DNA of 52,661 nt from a virus (taxonomy: Duplodnaviria; Caudoviricetes): positions 1 through 52,661 of IMG/VR virus record IMGVR_UViG_3300009537_000014. One strand, 5' to 3'. The notes below the pieces were generated by a model. That model made no database searches. It had not been told where the DNA came from and saw only the letters and a list, made by a program, of their open reading frames with translations. Position numbers and translations under genes: made by a program. Below are positions 1 through 52,661 of this stretch, piece after piece. The stretch's first letter is position 1; every line of letters begins with the position of its first letter.

Positions 1-130
1 CACCTGGCATATATACGCTCCCGTAAGATCTTTTAGGTCTGTTAACAGGGAAAAAGGAGGTTTAGGCAAGCAAATCTACTATTAATTGCTACTACACCAA
101 CGCTCCAACGTTGGGTTAGTAATAAAATAC

Positions 131-159
131 TTGACAATTTCCGGTAAGTAGTGTATGGT
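131..159 (+). promoter_or_regulatory. sigma70-type promoter upstream of the late operon
   Basis: TTGACA (131-136), 17-nt spacer, TATGGT (154-159); AT-rich upstream. Confidence 0.65.
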
Positions 160-43859: not shown

Positions 43860-44093
43860 TTATCTACCTCCTTTCAGGTATTGGATTTCCTCTTCTACTA
43901 CTCTTTTTAACGGGTCGATGAAGTATAATTCCCACTCAGCTTGTCTTTCCCAACGGTTCTTTTTTAGTACGAAGCCTTCGTTCGCAGACATGAAGCCGCA
44001 TTTATCGTATTCCTGCATACCAGGAACCGACTTGACTGTATCTGCTTGACGGTGGTCGTTTTTCAATCGAACATGGTCTCCAGCTTTAAACAA
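43860..44093 (-). CDS. SH3/KOW-like small protein with shared C-terminal helix
   Basis: Probable TTG start after GGAGG; FKAGDHVRL; ends DPLKRVVEEEIQYL. Confidence 0.55.
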   Translation of the reverse strand: MFKAGDHVRLKNDHRQADTVKSVPGMQEYDKCGFMSANEGFVLKKNRWERQAEWELYFIDPLKRVVEEEIQYLKGGR

Positions 44094-44742
44094 GCTTGAT
44101 CCTCCCTGTTGCCTTGGGCTTGGGCATTGGTACGTCATCTGGCTTACCTTCTTGTAGGTGCTGAAAGGCTTTCTCTTCTTTAAATACACCGATCTCTAGC
44201 CCCCATTTACCATTGATCTCAACGGCTCTGACATAACCGTCACTGGCTACGAACCCTCTACTTGCAGGGCAGAACTCACCTCTTGCAACCTGCTTGGTCT
44301 GGCGTAGATAATCCCATAGCTTATACATCTGGGATTGGTTACGCTTGACCGCTCTCTGCCTGTCGATGTCCTTCTTCATCCCATCATCATCCGCATAGAC
44401 TTCATAATATGCAGAGATAATATAGTTATCCGTATAGTTGGCTTCAGGCTGGTAGCCTTCTATCGTGAACTGTTTGGTCTGACTCAGCTCGGATACCTCT
44501 TGATCTCCTGCGAAGAATGACAACTCATCCTTCCCATACTGCTGTCCTTGGTCATCTACCCACGCTTTCTGGGTAGACCCCTGACCCAACACCTTGCCTT
44601 GATACAGAGTCTTGTACTTGACCTCCGTACCAGTCGAAGTCTTGGCTACGATCTCTGGCTTCTTTGCCTTGGCGAGATTGTCATATCTGGCATTGAAACC
44701 AATGTCACTTCCGTTTGTTATGTTTAGCTTGTAGCTTGACAC
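44086..44742 (-). CDS. divergent Ku-like DNA end-binding protein
   Basis: GTG start after GGAGG; TKQFTIEGY..E.NY...IISAYYEV.AD and MYKLWDYLRQTKQVARGEF resemble the bacterial Ku core. Confidence 0.5.
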   Translation of the reverse strand: MSSYKLNITNGSDIGFNARYDNLAKAKKPEIVAKTSTGTEVKYKTLYQGKVLGQGSTQKAWVDDQGQQYGKDELSFFAGDQEVSELSQTKQFTIEGYQPEANYTDNYIISAYYEVYADDDGMKKDIDRQRAVKRNQSQMYKLWDYLRQTKQVARGEFCPASRGFVASDGYVRAVEINGKWGLEIGVFKEEKAFQHLQEGKPDDVPMPKPKATGRIKLV

Positions 44743-45103
44743 GTTTCCTCCTTGCTCTTCCGAATTGTTTCGGGTTGATCTCAAAGATATAGTGCCCACC
44801 ACGCCTTGATTGTTCCCAACAGAATATCCAGAAGAACGTCCTTTCGAGTTCTGCAATCTGTTCCTCGTGACCAGACCATCCTCCTGTACTGTAATACAAC
44901 TTCACCACAATTCTATCAAAGTCATCACAGTGAAGCGCATAATCGAAACCGAAGAAACTTCCCCATCGGTGGTTATCCTCAAGGATATTAAGAAGTCTCT
45001 TTAGATTCTTGAGCGACATGTGGAACTTGGGACCTCCGATACGCCACTTTCTTATCTCTCTGAGACATTCTGCTGTTGGATATCCATCACTTCTCTTTTT
45101 CAT
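44705..45103 (-). CDS. conserved-looking phage hypothetical protein
   Basis: DGYPT..CL..I..W ... STGGWSGHEE.I..L....FW..CWEQSRRGGHYIFE; RBS GGAGGAG. Confidence 0.65.
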   Translation of the reverse strand: MKKRSDGYPTAECLREIRKWRIGGPKFHMSLKNLKRLLNILEDNHRWGSFFGFDYALHCDDFDRIVVKLYYSTGGWSGHEEQIAELERTFFWIFCWEQSRRGGHYIFEINPKQFGRARRKRVKLQAKHNKRK

Positions 45104-45119
45104 GCTTCTCCTCCTTCGC

Positions 45120-45300
45120 TACTGCATGCACCCTCTGGCCCACTCACTGGTCCACTCGTGCTTGCTTCTACGCAAGCACTCGCCACCCACATCAAGCGGT
45201 GTGGGTTGTCTGCTCGCATGGCACATCTCCATGCCATGCTCGCCCGTTCGCTCGCCAACGGGTGCACCGCATCCGCTCAGTCGTCCAAGCATGTCATGTG
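45120..45300 (-). other. GC-rich intergenic multi-hairpin element
   Basis: At least four hairpins, two flanked by tandem GA/GA mismatches. Confidence 0.5.
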
Positions 45301-45313
45301 AGGACATGAGACA

Positions 45314-46822
45314 TTAATCCTCAAGGGTTACCATAATAGCCTCCAATAAGATCTGGTCAGCAGTCTCTTTAGCCAGGATGTTCATGTCTCCACAGATTTC
45401 AGTAACGAATGTCCCAGTTACTTCTGCTCCTACTCCTACGACCATTACTCTTACATCGTGACCATGCTTGATGATTCTGTCTTGTACCGCTTCTACTTCT
45501 CTCTTATGTACATCTCCATCAGTGAATACGATAACGATCCTCTTGCCATCTAGTTCTGGATCATTAACAAGCTCATCATGCACTACAGCAAACGCGCTTT
45601 CTAGATTGGTTCCTCCTGATGTCCTGAGATACTCCTTCTCCCAGTTCTCTTTGCTTAATGGATGATAGTTTCCAGTAAAGCCAGCGATAGACCAGTCTAC
45701 GCTTAGTCCTTCCAACTGTTCTAACTCTGCGAGGATCTTAACAAGCTCCTTGGCGCATCCACATACTGCACTTTTCCTGCTCTTACCATCCAGAAGAGCT
45801 GTGTCCATTGATCCTGAGCCATCTAACAAGAGCTTGATTCTGCTCTTCTTCTTACGGATTATTTGTTCTTCATGGAACAGCTCGTCTATATCACCTGTCA
45901 GATATGCTGGAAGATTATCCGTGTTGAGATCTTCTCCCATTGGGATGCGTCTGACCTCTTTGATATTGAGCATTGCTTTGAATCTCTCTCTGGTAAGCTC
46001 CTGCAGGGCTACCTCTCCCATCTCAGCGTTACCGACCGTTGTTCCCTCTCCTGGTTTGAGCCCAAACACTTGCTTTGCGTTTGGTTTAAGATCGCTTAGA
46101 TCTGTGGTACCGAGGGTCCCCTTGCCTCCACACACCTTACAGGAGGTGCCGTTGGTGTCTTTGCCTGTACCATTACAGGCTGGACAGGGGTGTGCATCCC
46201 CTCCCGTGGCAGACAAGGGGACTTTCGGCAACTTATCTAGGCCAAAGATCTTCATTAATTCTTCAATCTTATCTTTCAAGCCACCCCAGTTTTCCATCTC
46301 AATATCATCGATTGCCATCTCTACTTTGTGGTGGATGTTGTGCTTATCTGCGAACTCTTCTGCCTCCCTGTCCTTGATGTGACCTTCTCTTAACCCTTCA
46401 AGTTCATAGATTGTATTGACGAGCACCTTCTTGTGGAGAGGGACTTCCTCCATCTTAACTTTCTTTCGATGCTCTACATCATAGGCTACGCCACGCTTAT
46501 AGAACTCGTGGATATTGGGCAACAGTTGGAAGTTATGCCTATCGATTCTTACGTCTTCGATGGCATTCAGTACACCATGCGCTATCTGGTTATCTTGAGT
46601 AACCTCTTTGACAGGGATGCCTCCCGTATACCTTACATGCCCTGCTTCATGCATGAGATGTGACAGGCTGGCAAACGCATCCTTCTCTTCTACATTGCTG
46701 GGTAAGATAATGTGCTTGGTCTGCATGTCCACGCATGGGGTGACATCTGGTTTGAACTCAACCGTCACCCCTGTCGTTCTTCCAATCCACTTGGCTAGGA
46801 TCTCGTATGTTTTGGCATTCAC
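45314..46822 (-). CDS. vWA-domain protein with N-terminal metallopeptidase-like domain (CobT-like MoxR partner)
   Basis: HEAGH and LNAIEDVRID; CPACNGTG/CKVCGGKG zinc finger; MIDAS LLDGSGSM, GGTNL, VFTDG. Confidence 0.85.
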   Translation of the reverse strand: MNAKTYEILAKWIGRTTGVTVEFKPDVTPCVDMQTKHIILPSNVEEKDAFASLSHLMHEAGHVRYTGGIPVKEVTQDNQIAHGVLNAIEDVRIDRHNFQLLPNIHEFYKRGVAYDVEHRKKVKMEEVPLHKKVLVNTIYELEGLREGHIKDREAEEFADKHNIHHKVEMAIDDIEMENWGGLKDKIEELMKIFGLDKLPKVPLSATGGDAHPCPACNGTGKDTNGTSCKVCGGKGTLGTTDLSDLKPNAKQVFGLKPGEGTTVGNAEMGEVALQELTRERFKAMLNIKEVRRIPMGEDLNTDNLPAYLTGDIDELFHEEQIIRKKKSRIKLLLDGSGSMDTALLDGKSRKSAVCGCAKELVKILAELEQLEGLSVDWSIAGFTGNYHPLSKENWEKEYLRTSGGTNLESAFAVVHDELVNDPELDGKRIVIVFTDGDVHKREVEAVQDRIIKHGHDVRVMVVGVGAEVTGTFVTEICGDMNILAKETADQILLEAIMVTLED

Positions 46823-47079
46823 TTGCTACCATTCTCCTGCGGTTGGACTGCCCATTCATAATAGGTAATGCCCTTCCAAGGCTTACCGTTCTTGAACCCT
46901 TTGTGTACACTGATGTTCCCGCCTGGTGCAGGGATATCAATAGCCATCCTGGTCTTGCCCTCTTCGAGCCATGTTAAGAACTTGTCCCTCTCGATGTTGA
47001 TACGGAACACGTCCTTGTTCTTCTTGGTTGTGGTAAGGAATGCCCTCGGCATCCTCGGTCTTGCATATTGCTGACTCAT
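46819..47079 (-). CDS. hypothetical basic protein
   Basis: RBS AGGGAG; lies between MoxR and vWA genes. Confidence 0.6.
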   Translation of the reverse strand: MSQQYARPRMPRAFLTTTKKNKDVFRINIERDKFLTWLEEGKTRMAIDIPAPGGNISVHKGFKNGKPWKGITYYEWAVQPQENGSK

Positions 47080-47091
47080 ATATCTCCCTTT

Positions 47092-48213
47092 CTAAGTCAT
47101 TAACTCTTTCCAAATCGCCTGCGCAATCCTAAGGAAACTCTCCTTAGCTTTGGGTTGGGATACAGCTTCAAGGATACTAGACAAGCCATCCTCTAGGGCA
47201 TCTTTCAGTGGCAACCCTGCCACCCACAAGTCGATCACGTTGTTTAACTGCCTGATTGATATATCTATCGGTAACTGTACTCTGTCGATGGTCTCGATGA
47301 TGGAGAAATAATACTTGGAAAACTTCTCGCTATCATCCTCAGCTATCTCTGGGTACCTGGCTTTGATTGCTCTCTTGATCTGAGGCTTTGTGAACTCAGG
47401 ATAAGTGAGATAAGTACATCGTCCTAGGAAATTACTAGGCTTGACCACGCCACCGATATACTTGGCACTCTTTGGATTCTGAGCGAACCCGATCCTGCAA
47501 TCAATGTGTAGCTGATAGACCTTTCCATTTCCGTTGTTAGCGTCCTTGATATACAGCTCTCTATTCTGCAAGAGGGCATGGAAATCAAATGTGTTCGCAT
47601 TACTGACAGCATTGATCTCATCGAACAGGATGACAGACGGACATTGGGTTGCCTTTACGAACAACGCTTCTTGGAACACAACGCTTCCATTGATGATGGT
47701 CTTGTCACCATACAGTTTGGTCAACCTGAAGTCTTCATATCCAGAGAACAAGAAGAATGGAAGCTGATTCTTATACGCATAATACATATGGCTCCAAGTC
47801 TTCCCGGTCCCTTGCTTTCCTTGGGTTAGCGGATATTTGCCTATGTTGTATGCGACAGCCAGCCTCTTATCGATATCTCTTTCGATATAGTTATCGAACT
47901 CCTCCTTCTTTGGGATATACGTCTTCATGTCTTCTGGGATCTCAAACTGCTTGGAGGCTGAACTTTCATTGATGTTGGCTCTTGTAGTTTGAGACTCTTC
48001 TGATTTCTCGGTTGGTTTACCTCCCCCGACTGTGGCTCCGCTCAATGGATCTCCCATTTCTAGGAACCTCCCTCTTATTGTAGATTCATCGAGATCAATG
48101 TTATGTCTCTTCTTGACCTCTTCTTTGATCATCCAAGCTCTGACTTGCTTGGAATCTTTCTTGAGGAACTCTCTGATCTCTCTCAGTTCTTCGTTGCTTA
48201 CCGCACTCTTCAT
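47092..48213 (-). CDS. MoxR/CbbQ/CobS-family AAA+ ATPase with N-terminal HTH-like domain
   Basis: Walker A GKQGTGKT, Walker B ILFDEIN, AQNP, SIRQL; start after AAGGAGGTG. Confidence 0.85.
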   Translation of the reverse strand: MKSAVSNEELREIREFLKKDSKQVRAWMIKEEVKKRHNIDLDESTIRGRFLEMGDPLSGATVGGGKPTEKSEESQTTRANINESSASKQFEIPEDMKTYIPKKEEFDNYIERDIDKRLAVAYNIGKYPLTQGKQGTGKTWSHMYYAYKNQLPFFLFSGYEDFRLTKLYGDKTIINGSVVFQEALFVKATQCPSVILFDEINAVSNANTFDFHALLQNRELYIKDANNGNGKVYQLHIDCRIGFAQNPKSAKYIGGVVKPSNFLGRCTYLTYPEFTKPQIKRAIKARYPEIAEDDSEKFSKYYFSIIETIDRVQLPIDISIRQLNNVIDLWVAGLPLKDALEDGLSSILEAVSQPKAKESFLRIAQAIWKELMT

Positions 48214-48323
48214 TACACCTCCTTGTTCGTTGAATATCTCATTGCATCTAAGACATAGTTCTCCGCTTCGAGTACAGGTGCTATATCCATCTCCATTGTA
48301 GTAAGGCTTACCTGCACAAATCG

Positions 48324-49100
48324 TCATGCTTTTCCCCGATATACTGGATGCCTTAGACCACCTTGAGACATGAATCCTTGGTGTTCGATCTTCACCCTCA
48401 TTCCTATCTTCAGATGGATCTTGTCCTTGTTGCAGACCTTGACTCCTACGGCCTTTCCTGTCGAGCCGGGACCAAACGGAACGAACACTTCTATCCTTTC
48501 TTTCGTTGGATCAATGTTCCATACTTGATACACATTCTCATCCTTCTTCTTGAGCTTGACCCAATGGCAAGGACCGTACTGGAGATGAGAGTCTAGAGAC
48601 TTGACTACTGTGCCTTCATAACCTTGGTTACAAGCCTTCTTGAAGTGACCTAGAGCTTCTGCTTTTGATCTAACAACCTTTCCTATCGATGATATTGGGA
48701 ACTCACGACGCATGATTTCAAGCCTCGTGATCAACGGTTCACGCTTAAGAGATATGCCGTTAAGCGTTTCAATATCGAATGGAACGAACTTTAATGCGTC
48801 TGAATGTTTGTTCTTTAGAAGCTCGGTTAACTCACCTGTAAGACCGTTATAGTAGATTAGTTCTCCTAGTATCACATACCTAAGGTGAGAAGATTCGTTA
48901 AACAGCCATCGTGTAAGCTCGAAGTCTTCTCTCTTCTTACCATACTTGTTGAGAAGATATGGTTTCTCACCCCACGGCTTGATGAGCTGGTTATACTCCC
49001 CATCAAACTTAGGCTCCGCCCATGCTGGATAATGTAGACTATCCAGATTTCCCCTCAGCTCGGGGAACTGTGCCTTCTGGTTCGTGTTCGTAATCTTCAT
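48324..49100 (-). CDS. minimal ATP-dependent DNA ligase
   Basis: Motif I EPKFDG, III GEL, IIIa PFDI, IV GYEGTVVK, V WVKLK, VI LRHPVY. Confidence 0.9.
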   Translation of the reverse strand: MKITNTNQKAQFPELRGNLDSLHYPAWAEPKFDGEYNQLIKPWGEKPYLLNKYGKKREDFELTRWLFNESSHLRYVILGELIYYNGLTGELTELLKNKHSDALKFVPFDIETLNGISLKREPLITRLEIMRREFPISSIGKVVRSKAEALGHFKKACNQGYEGTVVKSLDSHLQYGPCHWVKLKKKDENVYQVWNIDPTKERIEVFVPFGPGSTGKAVGVKVCNKDKIHLKIGMRVKIEHQGFMSQGGLRHPVYRGKA

Positions 49101-51496: not shown

Positions 51497-51574
51497 GATT
51501 AATGCTCCTTTTTAAAAATGGTGGACACGGCAGAGTTTCGTATGATGAGACTCTAGTCTCAATCCTACCGTTGG

Positions 51575-51868
51575 TTACTCTGCTACGGTATCCTCGTGTC
51601 TATGATTCTTAATAACTTTGACGAGAGAATGATTGTCATTCCATTCATCGTCAAATTCTTCTGCATGATCTTCTTGAAACTGTTCAAAGCTACGCTTCTT
51701 AGTTACTTCAGGTGCTCCCTTGTCATAAACAATATTAATGAAGTCTTGATGTCCTTGCTCAACATCAATATCAGCTCTTGGCTCATCCCATCTCGCAATA
51801 CATCCATCAGCCGTAAGCTTATAGCTACCAGACTCTTCATCGAATGCGAATCTATCTTTGCGATTCAT
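51575..51868 (-). CDS. acidic hypothetical protein
   Basis: RBS GGAGGTG; D/E-rich. Confidence 0.6.
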   Translation of the reverse strand: MNRKDRFAFDEESGSYKLTADGCIARWDEPRADIDVEQGHQDFINIVYDKGAPEVTKKRSFEQFQEDHAEEFDDEWNDNHSLVKVIKNHRHEDTVAE

Positions 51869-51897
51869 CGGTTAGCACCTCCGATATTAATATTAAT

Positions 51898-51934
51898 CAA
51901 AATATAGGGGGCTTATTCAGCCCCCTATACTTTT
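51898..51934. terminator. bidirectional intrinsic terminator
   Basis: TATAGGGGGCT-TATTC-AGCCCCCTATA with T-tracts on both strands; directly after the stop of the 78-aa gene. Confidence 0.75.
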
Positions 51935-52586
51935 ATTGCTGTTTCGCCTTACGGACATCGACCAATCGAACTCCGCACTCAAGGGCGAGATCGGCAACAG
52001 TGGAATCCCACTGATCAACCTTTTTGGTCTTGTCAAAGGTCGTCAAGGAATATTCGTCACCACTCTGTTTCTTGATTCCCCGAATCACAACAAGATTATC
52101 GAGGAGCGACGTCACACGAGCGAGGTGCTTTTCCAATTCCTCGACTCGGTCTTGCAGTTCATGTGCCATGGGGCACCTCCTTTGTTTGACCAAGGCTCGC
52201 AAGTGCCAGCAAATGCGAAAGCTCCGAGGGACGAGGACAAGCGAGTCTGCGAGACTTGCCGACAAAAAAGCGAGATCTAGAGCTTTTTTGGCGGGCGACA
52301 GCATTTGCGGGACACGCAGTCGAGCCCAAACAAAGGAGGGGACACATGGACACATGAGATGCAAGAACGAGGCGAGCTATTGAAAAGCACCGAAGACTCG
52401 TGTGACGGCGAGCCTCCTATCTTGTATCTCTATAAGGGGAATCATATAAGAGTGGTGACTATTCATTGAGATACTTAATGAGACCAAAAAGTATAAGTGG
52501 GATTCCTATACCGATCTCGTATAAGTGCGGAGCTATTGGATGATAGAGATTAGGCGAAACAGTATAAAGTATGGGGCTGAATGAGT
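51911..52586. repeat. about 680-nt imperfect inverted repeat (rod-like fold-back)
   Basis: More than 15 co-linear complementary blocks between 51911-52216 and 52301-52586, e.g. CCTCCTTTGTTTG 52176-52188 / CAAACAAAGGAGG 52327-52339. Confidence 0.9.
51933..52169 (-). CDS. 78-aa hypothetical protein embedded in the fold-back element
   Basis: RBS AAGGAGG then ATG at 52169; N-terminal coiled coil (LQDRVEELEKHLARV). Confidence 0.7.
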   Translation of the reverse strand: MAHELQDRVEELEKHLARVTSLLDNLVVIRGIKKQSGDEYSLTTFDKTKKVDQWDSTVADLALECGVRLVDVRKAKQQ

Positions 52587-52597
52587 CTCCTTATTGG

Positions 52598-52603
52598 ATT
52601 ATA
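52598..52603 (-). promoter_or_regulatory. candidate -10 box for the leftward transcript
   Basis: Minus-strand TATAAT in an AT-rich patch; no good -35. Confidence 0.4.
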
Positions 52604-52661
52604 TATTTATACTCTAAGCTCCCCACCGAGCCCACCTTCTGCTTCGTCGCGGACGTGCCCG

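What the first reader, a model, noticed from the sequence alone, without database searches (positions are those of the whole stretch)
51903..52603. Giant fold-back element: a non-coding arm complementary to an entire gene, its RBS and its terminator
Seen: 52301-52586 is complementary, block by block and co-linearly, to 51911-52216. Blocks: ATTCAGCCCC 51915/52573; CTGTTTCGCCT 51939/52552; CTCCGCACT 51971/52524; CGAGATCGG 51986/52511; GGAATCCCACT 52002/52496; CTTTTTGGTCT 52020/52481; GTCACCACTCT 52056/52449; TGATTCCCC 52073/52436; GTCACACGAG 52111/52397; CCTCCTTTGTTTG 52176/52327; GGCTCG 52194/52321; GCAAATGC 52209/52301. A branched apex closes it (CAAAAAAGC/GCTTTTTTG, 52263-52290). The left arm is exactly the 78-aa ORF (52169-51933, - strand) with its SD and terminator. 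A minus-strand TATAAT (52603-52598) would start transcription just outside the right arm. Inference: a ~690-nt RNA folding end to end into a rod, reminiscent of viroid-like rods, in which the 5' leader masks its own mRNA. It sits at the head of the early operon. I know no described phage system with this design. It could be a cis-antisense switch, a silenced toxin/regulator module, a dsRNA decoy or a DNA cruciform/ssDNA structure. Wobble pairs do not clearly favour one strand.
Basis: partly seen in the sequence, partly recalled or inferred. Interest (0 to 1): 0.95.

Follow-up and report, generated by a model that had tools for sequence, protein, structure and literature searches.

The report
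Gene-length fold-back at phage genome end
The first gene at one end of an uncultured phage's DNA is preceded by a scrambled mirror-image copy of itself, so its message could fold back on itself along its whole length; two distant relatives have the same layout around other genes, which hints at a control device, but its function is untested.

Summary
Window 51885-52611 is one imperfect inverted repeat: 68% identity over 771 columns, E 3.5e-36. It is the only large one in the 52.7-kb phage record. Either strand folds into a rod far below shuffled controls (z -22 and -26). One arm is a 78-aa orphan gene with its ribosome-binding site (SD) and terminator. The other arm is a non-coding inverted copy of that cassette, about 50 nt from the contig end, which lies at or near a fixed genome terminus.

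New here: two distant relatives, the L081 phage and L125, carry the same architecture at the same place around other genes. That makes 3 of 14 right ends with it. No other inverted repeat of 100 columns or more occurs in 1.17 Mb of relatives' DNA.

Mismatches cluster in all three elements, leaving perfect 9-14-nt blocks. No strand-specific wobble signal, promoter, transcript or covariation could be shown.

- **Best reading (about 0.4):** a cis antisense leader that masks the first gene's mRNA and competes with its terminator.
- **Main rival (about 0.33):** a non-adaptive quasi-palindrome.
- **Novelty:** a new variant of fold-back translational control.
- **Interest:** 0.66.

The scan has noted other fold-back RNAs and terminal DNA folds in unrelated phages, but not this element.

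The parts
51899..51933 (-). Intrinsic terminator of the 78-aa gene: 15-pair stem followed by a T run. The scan also calls it on the plus strand. It forms the outermost part of the gene-side arm.
   Evidence: Terminator scan. The hairpin alone folds at -24.7 kcal/mol.
51933..52169 (-). 78-aa ORF with no detectable homologue (orphan), stop codon included. It is hydrophilic (pI 6.1, GRAVY -0.5) and predicted as helix-loop-helix at low confidence.
52170..52258 (-). 5' untranslated region of the gene. The SD AAAGGAGGTG lies within the 13-nt perfect block 52176-52188. The region is G+C-rich and no promoter-like site was found in it.
52259..52294 (.). Apex hairpin: 13-nt arms, 92% complementary, 10-nt loop. 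It is the centre of symmetry of the whole fold-back.
   Evidence: the repeat finder pair I15; fold.
52295..52611 (.). Upstream arm: a non-coding, inverted, degenerate copy of the 5'UTR, SD, ORF and terminator. It is 71% identical to the gene arm and 22 nt shorter, and has no long ORF. The copied SD is followed by a 3-codon ORF.
52431..52525 (+). Cluster of four TATAAG motifs, plus TATACC and TATAAA nearby. In four places a bare TATA replaces 6-7 nt of the gene copy, giving asymmetric internal loops.
   Evidence: This motif is not seen in the L081 or L125 rods.
52598..52603 (-). TATAAT on the minus strand, just outside the arm. It is a candidate -10 element without a recognisable -35.
   Evidence: One search confirms its presence. 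The promoter scan did not call it.
52612..52661 (.). Terminal ~50 nt between the arm and the contig end. Comparison with relatives' conserved ends places the contig end at or near the physical right terminus.

Best explanation
The element is an inverted duplication of the whole first gene cassette (5'UTR, SD, 78-aa ORF and terminator) of the operon that starts at the right genome end. The copy is kept as a non-coding arm between the terminus and the gene.

No promoter-like or terminator-like signal separates the arm from the gene. Transcription entering from the terminus side would therefore give an mRNA whose ~300-nt leader is antisense to the rest of the molecule. This RNA would zip from the apex outwards into a rod of 9-13-bp helices broken by internal loops.

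Three consequences are inferred:
1. The SD and AUG are masked.
2. The long duplex, with its broken helices, shapes stability or RNase processing.
3. The 5' end of the leader competes with the 5' arm of the terminator, so leader-bearing transcripts could read on into the operon.

Shown: the structure, its position, its recurrence at the same place in two other phages, and the non-random clustering of mismatches.

Inferred: that the arm is transcribed with the gene, and every functional consequence.
For: 1. The fold-back is real and extreme.

2. It covers one transcription unit, from the 5'UTR to within about 10-20 nt of the terminator's T run. The L081 element does the same.

3. The position is specific. 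In a uniform test of the first 900 nt (708 for L034) of 14 right ends, giant inverted repeats occur in the window (z 55), L081 (z 25) and L125 (z 7.5). The 11 others have only small hairpins or nothing. In 157 relatives' loci (1,170,026 bases) the only inverted repeats of 100 or more columns are these same two elements. The window itself has no other.

4. The three carriers are not sister lineages on a MoxR-like protein tree; L081 pairs with the arm-less L066 at support 96/93. Their first genes are not detectably related (hhalign probability 0.13%). Yet each arm matches its own gene at 60-71% identity.

5. DNA was added. The first SD-led ORF starts 493, 427 and 461 nt from the end in carriers, against about 95-354 nt in the 11 non-carriers (G001's roughly 95 nt was read by eye).

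6. Mismatches cluster. Perfect runs of 9 or more:
- Window: 11 against 4.3 +/- 1.5 in column shuffles (0 of 20,000 reach it).
- L081: 6 against 1.9 (P 0.0012).
- L125: 5 against 1.0 (P 0.0008).

7. No sigma70-like promoter or strong terminator lies between the arm and the gene.

8. The longest perfect block is the SD. The unpaired probability of the SD-AUG stretch falls from 0.55 in a transcript starting at 52258 to 0.18 in one starting at 52597.

9. The duplex of leader 5' end with terminator is -29.8 kcal/mol, against -24.7 for the terminator hairpin alone.

10. Relative L065 has a small 5'UTR hairpin whose 5' arm pairs with the SD of its first gene.
Against: - No transcript evidence of any kind.
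- No convincing promoter upstream of the arm.
- In L081 and L125 I read -10-like elements between apex and SD (TGATATAAG; TAAATAAT) off the sequence. The scans did not call them. If real, they would give mRNAs that lack the arm.
- No RNA-specific signature. Wobble-compatible mismatches total 29 on the sense strand against 28 on the antisense strand over the three elements. Transitions are only about one third of mismatches (22:44, 18:34, 17:34; window counts summed, the others).
- 11 of 14 relatives lack the arm, including L075, which has a homologue of the L081 gene. The device is therefore dispensable.
- A neutral simulation with indels reached the window's block count in 5.3% of 300 runs, and at a higher mean identity (0.77 against 0.71).
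- An mRNA masked over its whole length has no obvious route to activation.
Confidence: 0.4

Rival explanations
1. Non-adaptive quasi-palindrome. A 5'UTR hairpin, as seen in several relatives, seeded one or more replication template-switch or fold-back events that copied the adjacent gene cassette in inverted orientation into the largest non-essential non-coding tract of the genome. Occasional arm-to-arm template switching keeps patches identical while the non-coding arm decays with a deletion bias. Any RNA fold is a by-product.
For: - The upstream arm has no ORF and mismatches are not biased to third codon positions (23/74, 11/70, 12/70).
- The upstream arm carries most of the gap columns: 27 against 5, 41 against 10, and 27 against 17. 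This is what deletion-biased decay of a non-coding copy would give.
- No wobble asymmetry.
- The element is sporadic, in 3 of 14 right ends, and scattered on the tree.
- Small hairpins sit at the same place in G002 and L065.
- Two abstracts seen in a search listing say that polymerase template switching between imperfect inverted-repeat arms homogenises them and can expand them (PMC8604942, PMC13100816, listing only).
Against: - Terminator and other hairpins are found all over these genomes, yet none grew to 100 columns or more in 1.17 Mb.
- 250-340 nt of added non-coding DNA has persisted through 30-40% divergence, three times, in compact phage genomes.
- In both full-length cases the repeat ends at the boundary of the transcription unit.
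- Mismatch clustering exceeds column shuffles in all three elements.
Confidence: 0.33
2. DNA-level element of the genome terminus. The fold-back forms a hairpin or cruciform in single-stranded or supercoiled DNA next to the right end. It would serve end protection, concatemer processing, packaging termination or priming, as proposed for inverted repeats near the ends of T7-like and other phages (recalled; also earlier notes of this scan).
For: - It lies 50-175 nt from a fixed terminus in all three phages.
- Both strands fold equally well and there is no strand-specific wobble signal.
- Earlier scan notes e1-163222 and e1-298573 describe conserved folds beside phage ends. These are leads only and were not tested here.
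Against: - A cis element needed for replication or packaging should be conserved across the group. Here 11 of 14 right ends lack it.
- Its sequence is gene-specific rather than shared. The arms, apex and terminal 50 nt find nothing in relatives (best blastn E 0.085; no tblastx hit).
- Its boundaries follow a gene cassette rather than the terminus.
- The left ends, and the right ends of non-carriers, package without it.
Confidence: 0.12
3. Separate trans-acting antisense RNA, or a type I toxin-antitoxin-like pair. The upstream arm would be its own small transcription unit on the gene's strand, and its RNA would pair with the 78-aa mRNA to silence a harmful early protein.
For: Extensive complementarity that includes the SD and AUG. 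AT-rich -10-like elements within the distal arm.
Against: - No terminator separates the arm from the gene. The apex stem is A/U-rich and the scan did not call it.
- The protein is hydrophilic and unlike the small membrane toxins (the family traits are recalled).
- It has no family match at threshold and no PHROG match.
- Nothing indicates toxicity.
Confidence: 0.08
4. Assembly artefact: a fold-back chimera at a contig end.
For: It lies within about 50 nt of the contig end. No reads could be inspected.
Against: - The arms differ at about 29% of columns and by many indels. Chimeric fold-backs are exact copies.
- The contig continues past the arm into sequence that fits the group's terminus region.
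- The analogous L081 element is 100% identical over 7,073 nt in contigs of two metagenome data sets and in the IMG/VR record.
Confidence: 0.02

Closest known systems
hok mRNA fold-back inhibition (hok/Sok type I toxin-antitoxin; recalled, not read here)
   Same: The 5' end of a full-length mRNA pairs with its own 3' end. This closes the molecule and keeps the ribosome-binding region inaccessible until the RNA is processed.
   Different: In hok only short end segments pair, the protein is a small membrane toxin, and a separate antisense RNA (Sok) exists. Here a ~300-nt leader is antisense to the whole cassette, the protein is hydrophilic, and no second RNA gene or toxicity is evident.
IS10/IS50-type fold-back inhibition of read-through transcripts, and phage T4 e/soc/49 hairpins with alternative promoters (recalled)
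   Same: A sequence upstream of the start site is complementary to the ribosome-binding site. Only transcripts that start far upstream are silenced, while transcripts that start inside the hairpin are translated.
   Different: Those hairpins span tens of nucleotides around the start site. Here the arms span an entire gene and its terminator and derive from a duplication of the gene. The alternative start sites are only suspected.
Quasipalindrome template-switch homogenisation and expansion of inverted repeats (PMC8604942, PMC13100816, PMC7202029: abstract starts seen in the listing)
   Same: Imperfect inverted repeats whose arms are kept alike, and can grow, by polymerase template switching. 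This gives a ready origin for the element and for its patchy identity.
   Different: As far as I recall, the described cases are short (tens of nt). A 300-nt arm that copies a whole gene, recurring at one genomic position in a phage group, is not part of that literature as far as my four searches reached.
Inverted repeats beside phage genome ends (T7 right-end hairpin in concatemer processing, recalled; scan notes e1-163222, e1-298573, e1-6108887)
   Same: A fold-back-prone DNA segment within a few hundred bases of a physical terminus.
   Different: Those elements are conserved across their phage groups and are not copies of a neighbouring gene. This one is sporadic (3 of 14) and gene-derived.
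cabRNA, the structured phage RNA sensed by a CBASS cyclase (PMC10686824; abstract start seen in the listing)
   Same: A structured RNA made by a tailed phage, which matters for how the host responds to infection.
   Different: cabRNA comes from the terminase genes of staphylococcal phages and, as far as I recall, is not an inverted gene duplication. No defence link was tested here.

Membership tests
Type I toxin-antitoxin with fold-back-inhibited mRNA (hok/Sok-like) | Small, usually hydrophobic, toxic peptide | tested here: not met
   The 78-aa protein has GRAVY -0.5 and pI 6.1. It has no family match at threshold. Toxicity was not testable.
Type I toxin-antitoxin with fold-back-inhibited mRNA (hok/Sok-like) | Separate antisense RNA gene with its own promoter and terminator | tested here: not met
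   No promoter-terminator pair bounds the arm or any sub-part of it.
Type I toxin-antitoxin with fold-back-inhibited mRNA (hok/Sok-like) | 5'-3' pairing that closes the full-length mRNA | tested here: met
   In the predicted fold the outermost helices join 52573-52600 to 51895-51924. The transcript ends are assumed, not mapped.
Fold-back occlusion of a ribosome-binding site in long transcripts (IS10 / T4 e, soc, 49 type) | Upstream sequence complementary to the SD and start codon | tested here: met
   A 13-bp perfect helix lies over the SD and a 5-bp helix over the AUG. Unpaired probability is 0.18 against 0.55 without the arm.
Fold-back occlusion of a ribosome-binding site in long transcripts (IS10 / T4 e, soc, 49 type) | Two classes of transcript: a long silent one and a short active one that starts inside the hairpin | tested here: inconclusive
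   No promoter was called in the window apex. I read -10-like elements between apex and SD in L081 and L125 off, but the scans did not call them. No RNA data.
Quasipalindrome maintained by template switching | Imperfect inverted repeat with patches of perfect identity | tested here: met
   Window: 11 perfect runs of 9-13 nt at 71% overall identity. Similar patterns in L081 and L125.
Quasipalindrome maintained by template switching | Observed conversion events between the arms in close variants | not testable with these tools
   No close variants exist in the collections. The only repeats of an element are letter-identical copies.
Conserved terminal DNA fold (T7-type end-processing hairpin) | Conserved in position and sequence across the phage group | tested here: not met
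   Present in 3 of 14 right ends. The arms have no similarity to relatives.
Any curated RNA family (Rfam 15) | Covariance-model match | tested here: not met
   0 matches at E up to 1 on 51500-52661, both strands.
Coding paralogue pair (divergent gene duplicate) | Second copy keeps an ORF, and differences are biased to synonymous sites | tested here: not met
   The copy has only a 3-codon ORF after its SD. Mismatches by codon position are 23, 11 and 12.

The most novel reading that the evidence does not exclude
A selected, gene-length self-antisense leader. In a clade of uncultured phages with fixed genome ends, the first gene to be transcribed from the right end is sometimes equipped with a full-length inverted copy of itself. 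Its mRNA is then born as a closed, viroid-shaped rod with periodically broken helices. The rod would act as a timing or anti-termination switch, or as an RNase- or defence-directed decoy. The arm is kept complementary to whatever gene sits there, either by repeated origin or by concerted evolution.
Probability: 0.3. Interest if true: 0.85.

Novelty: new variant of a known kind. Interest (0 to 1): 0.66.

Why it matters
If the arm is co-transcribed, this would be the most extreme natural case of an mRNA masked by its own leader: an entire gene plus its terminator paired to an upstream antisense copy. It occurs in three phage lineages, around genes with no detectable similarity.

It would extend fold-back control of translation and termination from tens of nucleotides to whole genes. 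It would also give a tractable model for how long, imperfect double-stranded RNA is tolerated, processed or sensed in bacteria.

If it is non-adaptive, it is still a clean natural example of recurrent, position-specific growth of a palindrome next to a phage genome end. That bears on how new non-coding RNA structures and gene duplicates arise in viruses.

Either way the three elements and eleven negative relatives give a defined comparative set for experiments.

Tried and rejected
**Searches for homologues of the 78-aa protein**
- IMG/VR pattern scan: none.
- Word-indexed search of 5.8 billion proteins: only the protein itself among 2 candidates.
- HMMER over 1.84 billion representatives: the protein itself plus 4 long proteins (637-6683 aa) hit in 5-19 stretches each, which I read as compositional or coiled-coil matches.
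- Pfam: only sub-threshold hits, TelK_muzzle at 17.1 bits against a cut-off of 27, and MobI. I do not read these as protelomerase or relaxase.
- PHROGs: none.
- Five near-complete relatives: 0 of 5 have a match at E up to 10.
- blastn and tblastx of the arms, apex and terminal 50 nt against all 157 loci: chance-level only.

Covariation could therefore not be tested for the window's element.

**Other searches that found nothing**
- DNA search of the phage collection: no match.
- Small terminase and the 97-aa neighbour as queries: no loci.
- Sequencing runs: none was listed and no RNA holder was listed.

**Structure**
The AlphaFold2 single-sequence model has mean pLDDT 58.5. That is too weak for a fold search, and none was run.

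**Promoters**
- One weak minus-strand site inside the arm, 52568-52540, 9 of 12 matches. In total 1 site was found against 2.0 expected.
- None in L081.
- One on the wrong strand in L125.
- The exact pattern TTGACA-N16-18-TANNNT occurs 4 times in the window. The only one near an end is at 131-159 on the plus strand.

**Isolated single mismatches**
5 transitions against 8 transversions over the three elements. This is too few to interpret.

**The TATAAG cluster**
- Considered as promoter -10 boxes, but it lies on the wrong strand for the gene, has no -35 and no TGn.
- Considered as iterons or protein-binding sites.
- Unresolved, and absent from the L081 and L125 rods.

**Other readings rejected**
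- Diversity-generating retroelement: the repeat is inverted, the differences include indels and are not limited to adenines, and I saw no reverse transcriptase.
- Inverton: no invertase was noted nearby.
- Hairpin telomere: the arms are imperfect and the contig continues past them.

**Homology of the three carriers' first genes**
An eye-level KKSG-like motif appears in the alignment, but hhalign gives a probability of only 0.13%.

**Literature**
Four searches found no description of a gene-length upstream antisense arm in a phage. That is a narrow search of open-access text, not proof of absence. The papers were seen only as search listings with the starts of their abstracts. No supplements were opened.
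Full report
**What the window is.** The window is a complete IMG/VR virus record of 52,661 nt, classed linear and 100% complete by CheckV. Terminase, portal and structural genes run rightwards from position 215. A block of small genes, plus ligase, AAA+ and vWA genes, runs leftwards from the right end. Its large terminase is under 30% identical to that of any deposited phage. IMG/VR holds 56 loci with relatives at 35-78% identity.

**Fixed genome ends.** Many of those contigs begin at the same place as the window, about 570-700 nt upstream of the terminase gene. They start with a shared sequence of the type CACC..CATATATA..CCCCC. Three of the four relatives' contigs that stop at a right end stop at GTGAC, and junction-spanning contigs show GTGAC followed by C(A/C)CC. 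The group therefore has fixed genome ends. The window's right end lies at or within a few tens of bases of the physical terminus. The finding sits 50 nt inside it.

**The observation.** A self-against-reverse-complement blastn of the whole window returns a single large hit: 51885-52611, 771 columns, 68% identity, E 3.5e-36. The only other hit is the terminator palindrome. Folded as RNA, the minus strand gives -335.8 kcal/mol (z -21.8) and the plus strand -359.6 kcal/mol (z -25.6) against dinucleotide shuffles. Each fold has about 250 rod base pairs, and the perfect Watson-Crick blocks never exceed 13 nt.

**The two arms.**
- The gene arm is a 78-aa ORF with a strong SD and a 15-pair terminator.
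- The other arm is a copy of 5'UTR, SD, ORF and terminator in inverted orientation.
- The copy is 71% identical over 327 columns and 22 nt shorter. It has no ORF beyond three codons after the copied SD.
- Differences are not concentrated at third codon positions (23, 11 and 12 mismatches at positions 1, 2 and 3), so the copy did not evolve as a coding paralogue.

**Is it more than a decaying duplicate?**
- Mismatches are clustered. There are 11 perfect runs of 9-13 nt against 4.3 +/- 1.5 in column shuffles, and 0 of 20,000 shuffles reach 11.
- A crude neutral simulation with indels reached 11 in 5.3% of 300 runs, at a more favourable mean identity of 0.77.
- Transitions are only a third of the mismatches (22 of 66, summed).
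- Wobble-compatible mismatches are equal for the two strands, 11 against 11. Nothing therefore marks one strand as the selected RNA.
- In the distal half of the copy, four segments of 6-7 nt are each replaced by TATA. This gives a cluster of four TATAAG within 90 nt, where the whole plus strand has 27 and no other 200-nt bin has more than 3, counting both strands. I could not explain this motif.

**The protein.** It has no homologue in any search, no family at threshold, and only a low-confidence helix-loop-helix model. No Rfam family matches the region.

**Relatives.** I collected right ends of related phages through the terminase and through a conserved MoxR-like gene 4-5 kb from the end. 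Two further elements of the same design turned up.

*The L081 phage.*
- Its sequence is the same in loci L030, L081, L116 and L117: identical over 7,073 nt in contigs of two metagenome data sets and in the IMG/VR record.
- Its inverted repeat spans 560 columns at 66% identity (E 2.7e-13) and starts 100 nt after the end junction.
- The downstream arm is a 55-aa ORF with SD and terminator. The upstream arm is its non-coding inverted copy, and the apex is G+C-rich.
- It folds at z -11.3.

*L125.*
- Arms of about 175 nt pair the 5'UTR, the SD and roughly the first 20 codons of an 83-aa first gene with upstream non-coding DNA. The element starts 175 nt after the junction.
- It folds at z -7.4.

Both show the same excess of perfect 9-14-nt blocks (6 against 1.9, P 0.0012; 5 against 1.0, P 0.0008) and the same transition-to-transversion ratio of about 1:2.

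**How specific is the position?** In a uniform test of the first 900 nt (708 for L034) of 14 right ends, the three carriers score z 55, 25 and 7.5. The other 11 have only small hairpins or nothing. As a control, 157 loci totalling 1.17 Mb contain no other inverted repeat of 100 or more columns.

**Gains, losses and added DNA.**
- The carriers are scattered on a MoxR-like protein tree. L081 is sister to an arm-less phage at support 96/93.
- The window's protein is not detectably related to the first genes of five relatives, L081 and L125 among them (hhalign probability 0.13%).
- The L081 gene has a homologue in L075 that lacks an arm.
- Carriers have 427-493 nt between the end and the first gene, against about 95-354 nt in non-carriers. 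So DNA was added rather than overwritten.

**Interpretation.** The recurrence at one position, around genes with no detectable similarity, with each arm matching its own gene, means one of two things. Either there is a position-specific selective benefit, or a position-specific mutational process with long retention.

I favour a cis-acting RNA role at 0.4, for these reasons:
- The repeat spans one transcription unit in both full-length cases.
- No promoter or terminator signal separates arm and gene in the window.
- The SD lies in the longest perfect helix, and its accessibility drops from 0.55 to 0.18 when the arm is present.
- The leader's 5' end can out-compete the terminator hairpin on energy (-29.8 against -24.7 kcal/mol). 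That offers a route to leader-dependent read-through into the operon.
- A relative, L065, has a small anti-SD hairpin in the same place.

Broken helices of about one turn fit what I recall of antisense RNAs that avoid RNase III. That point is recalled, not tested.

Against this reading:
- There is no transcript or promoter evidence and no wobble asymmetry.
- The arm is dispensable in 11 of 14 relatives.
- I read possible -10 elements between apex and SD in L081 and L125, though the scans did not call them.

**Rivals.**
- Non-adaptive quasi-palindrome, 0.33. A 5'UTR hairpin seeds an inverted duplication, and template switching maintains it in patches. Abstracts seen in the listing describe such homogenisation and expansion. 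It explains the decay features and the sporadic distribution. It explains less well the exclusive position and the long retention.
- DNA-level terminal function, 0.12. It fits the location, but not the sporadic distribution or the gene-derived sequence.
- Separate antisense RNA or toxin-antitoxin reading, 0.08.
- Assembly artefact, 0.02.

**Comparison with known systems.** The element works most like two things: fold-back inhibition in hok mRNA, and fold-back occlusion of start sites in IS10 read-through transcripts and T4 early transcripts (all recalled). It fails the membership tests for a type I toxin-antitoxin system, a conserved terminal DNA fold, any Rfam family and a coding paralogue pair.

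Four literature searches (listings and abstract starts only) found no description of a gene-length upstream antisense arm in a phage. Earlier notes of this scan describe gene-enclosing stems and terminal folds in unrelated phages, but nothing like this element. No look-alike of this stretch was on record.

**Verdict.** I class it as a new variant of a known kind, interest 0.66.

Noticed in passing
window 1-30 and 52612-52661; left ends of L004-L041; junctions in L008, L011, L010/L073, L030/L081, L031, L034, L075, L125: The phage group has fixed genome ends. Independent contigs start with CACC..CATATATA..CCCCC, three of four contigs that stop at a right end stop at GTGAC, and junction-spanning contigs show the two joined. 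This suggests cohesive or otherwise defined termini. The window's last bases differ slightly from the GTGAC type.
   Followed up: partly
window 95-119; L075 4480-4500; L081 6043-6060; L125 5738-5870; G005 right end (L063): A CGTTGG / CCAACG motif is repeated two to four times within about 200 nt of the genome ends, on either side of the junction depending on the phage. These may be terminase or regulator binding sites.
   Followed up: no
window 131-159 (+): A canonical sigma70-type promoter, TTGACA-17-TATGGT, points at the small terminase gene. Similar TTGACA promoters sit in most relatives' left ends. No comparable promoter was found for the leftward right-end operon in the window, L081 or L125.
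   Followed up: partly
L154-L157, L159 (genome contigs): Five of seven hits of the MoxR-like gene in species-representative genomes lie on contigs binned into Candidatus Omnitrophota MAGs, and one lies in a Microgenomates MAG. This is a possible host clue, or a binning artefact.
   Followed up: no
L065 39-117: The first gene of this relative has a 5'UTR hairpin with a 14-bp stem. Its 5' flank, CACCTC, pairs with the gene's SD, making it a miniature of the window's design.
   Followed up: partly
window 52431-52525: Four TATAAG motifs lie within 90 nt, each arising where a bare TATA replaces 6-7 nt of the gene copy. This is unexplained and is not seen in the other two fold-backs.
   Followed up: partly
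window 51933-52364 (-): The reading frame of the 78-aa gene stays open upstream to a TTG at 52364 (143 aa), running through the apex into the upstream arm. It is probably not used, since the SD precedes the ATG at 52169.
   Followed up: no
L125 (contig of 136,119 nt): The L125 phage region, including an end-junction motif, lies inside a 136-kb metagenome contig. That is more than twice the usual genome length of the group. It could be a concatemer assembly, a larger relative or a prophage-like state; this was not examined.
   Followed up: no
window 44086-49100 (-): Pfam supports an ATP-dependent ligase domain (48324-49100), an AAA_5 MoxR-like ATPase (47092-48327) and a vWA protein (45314-46822).
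   Followed up: partly
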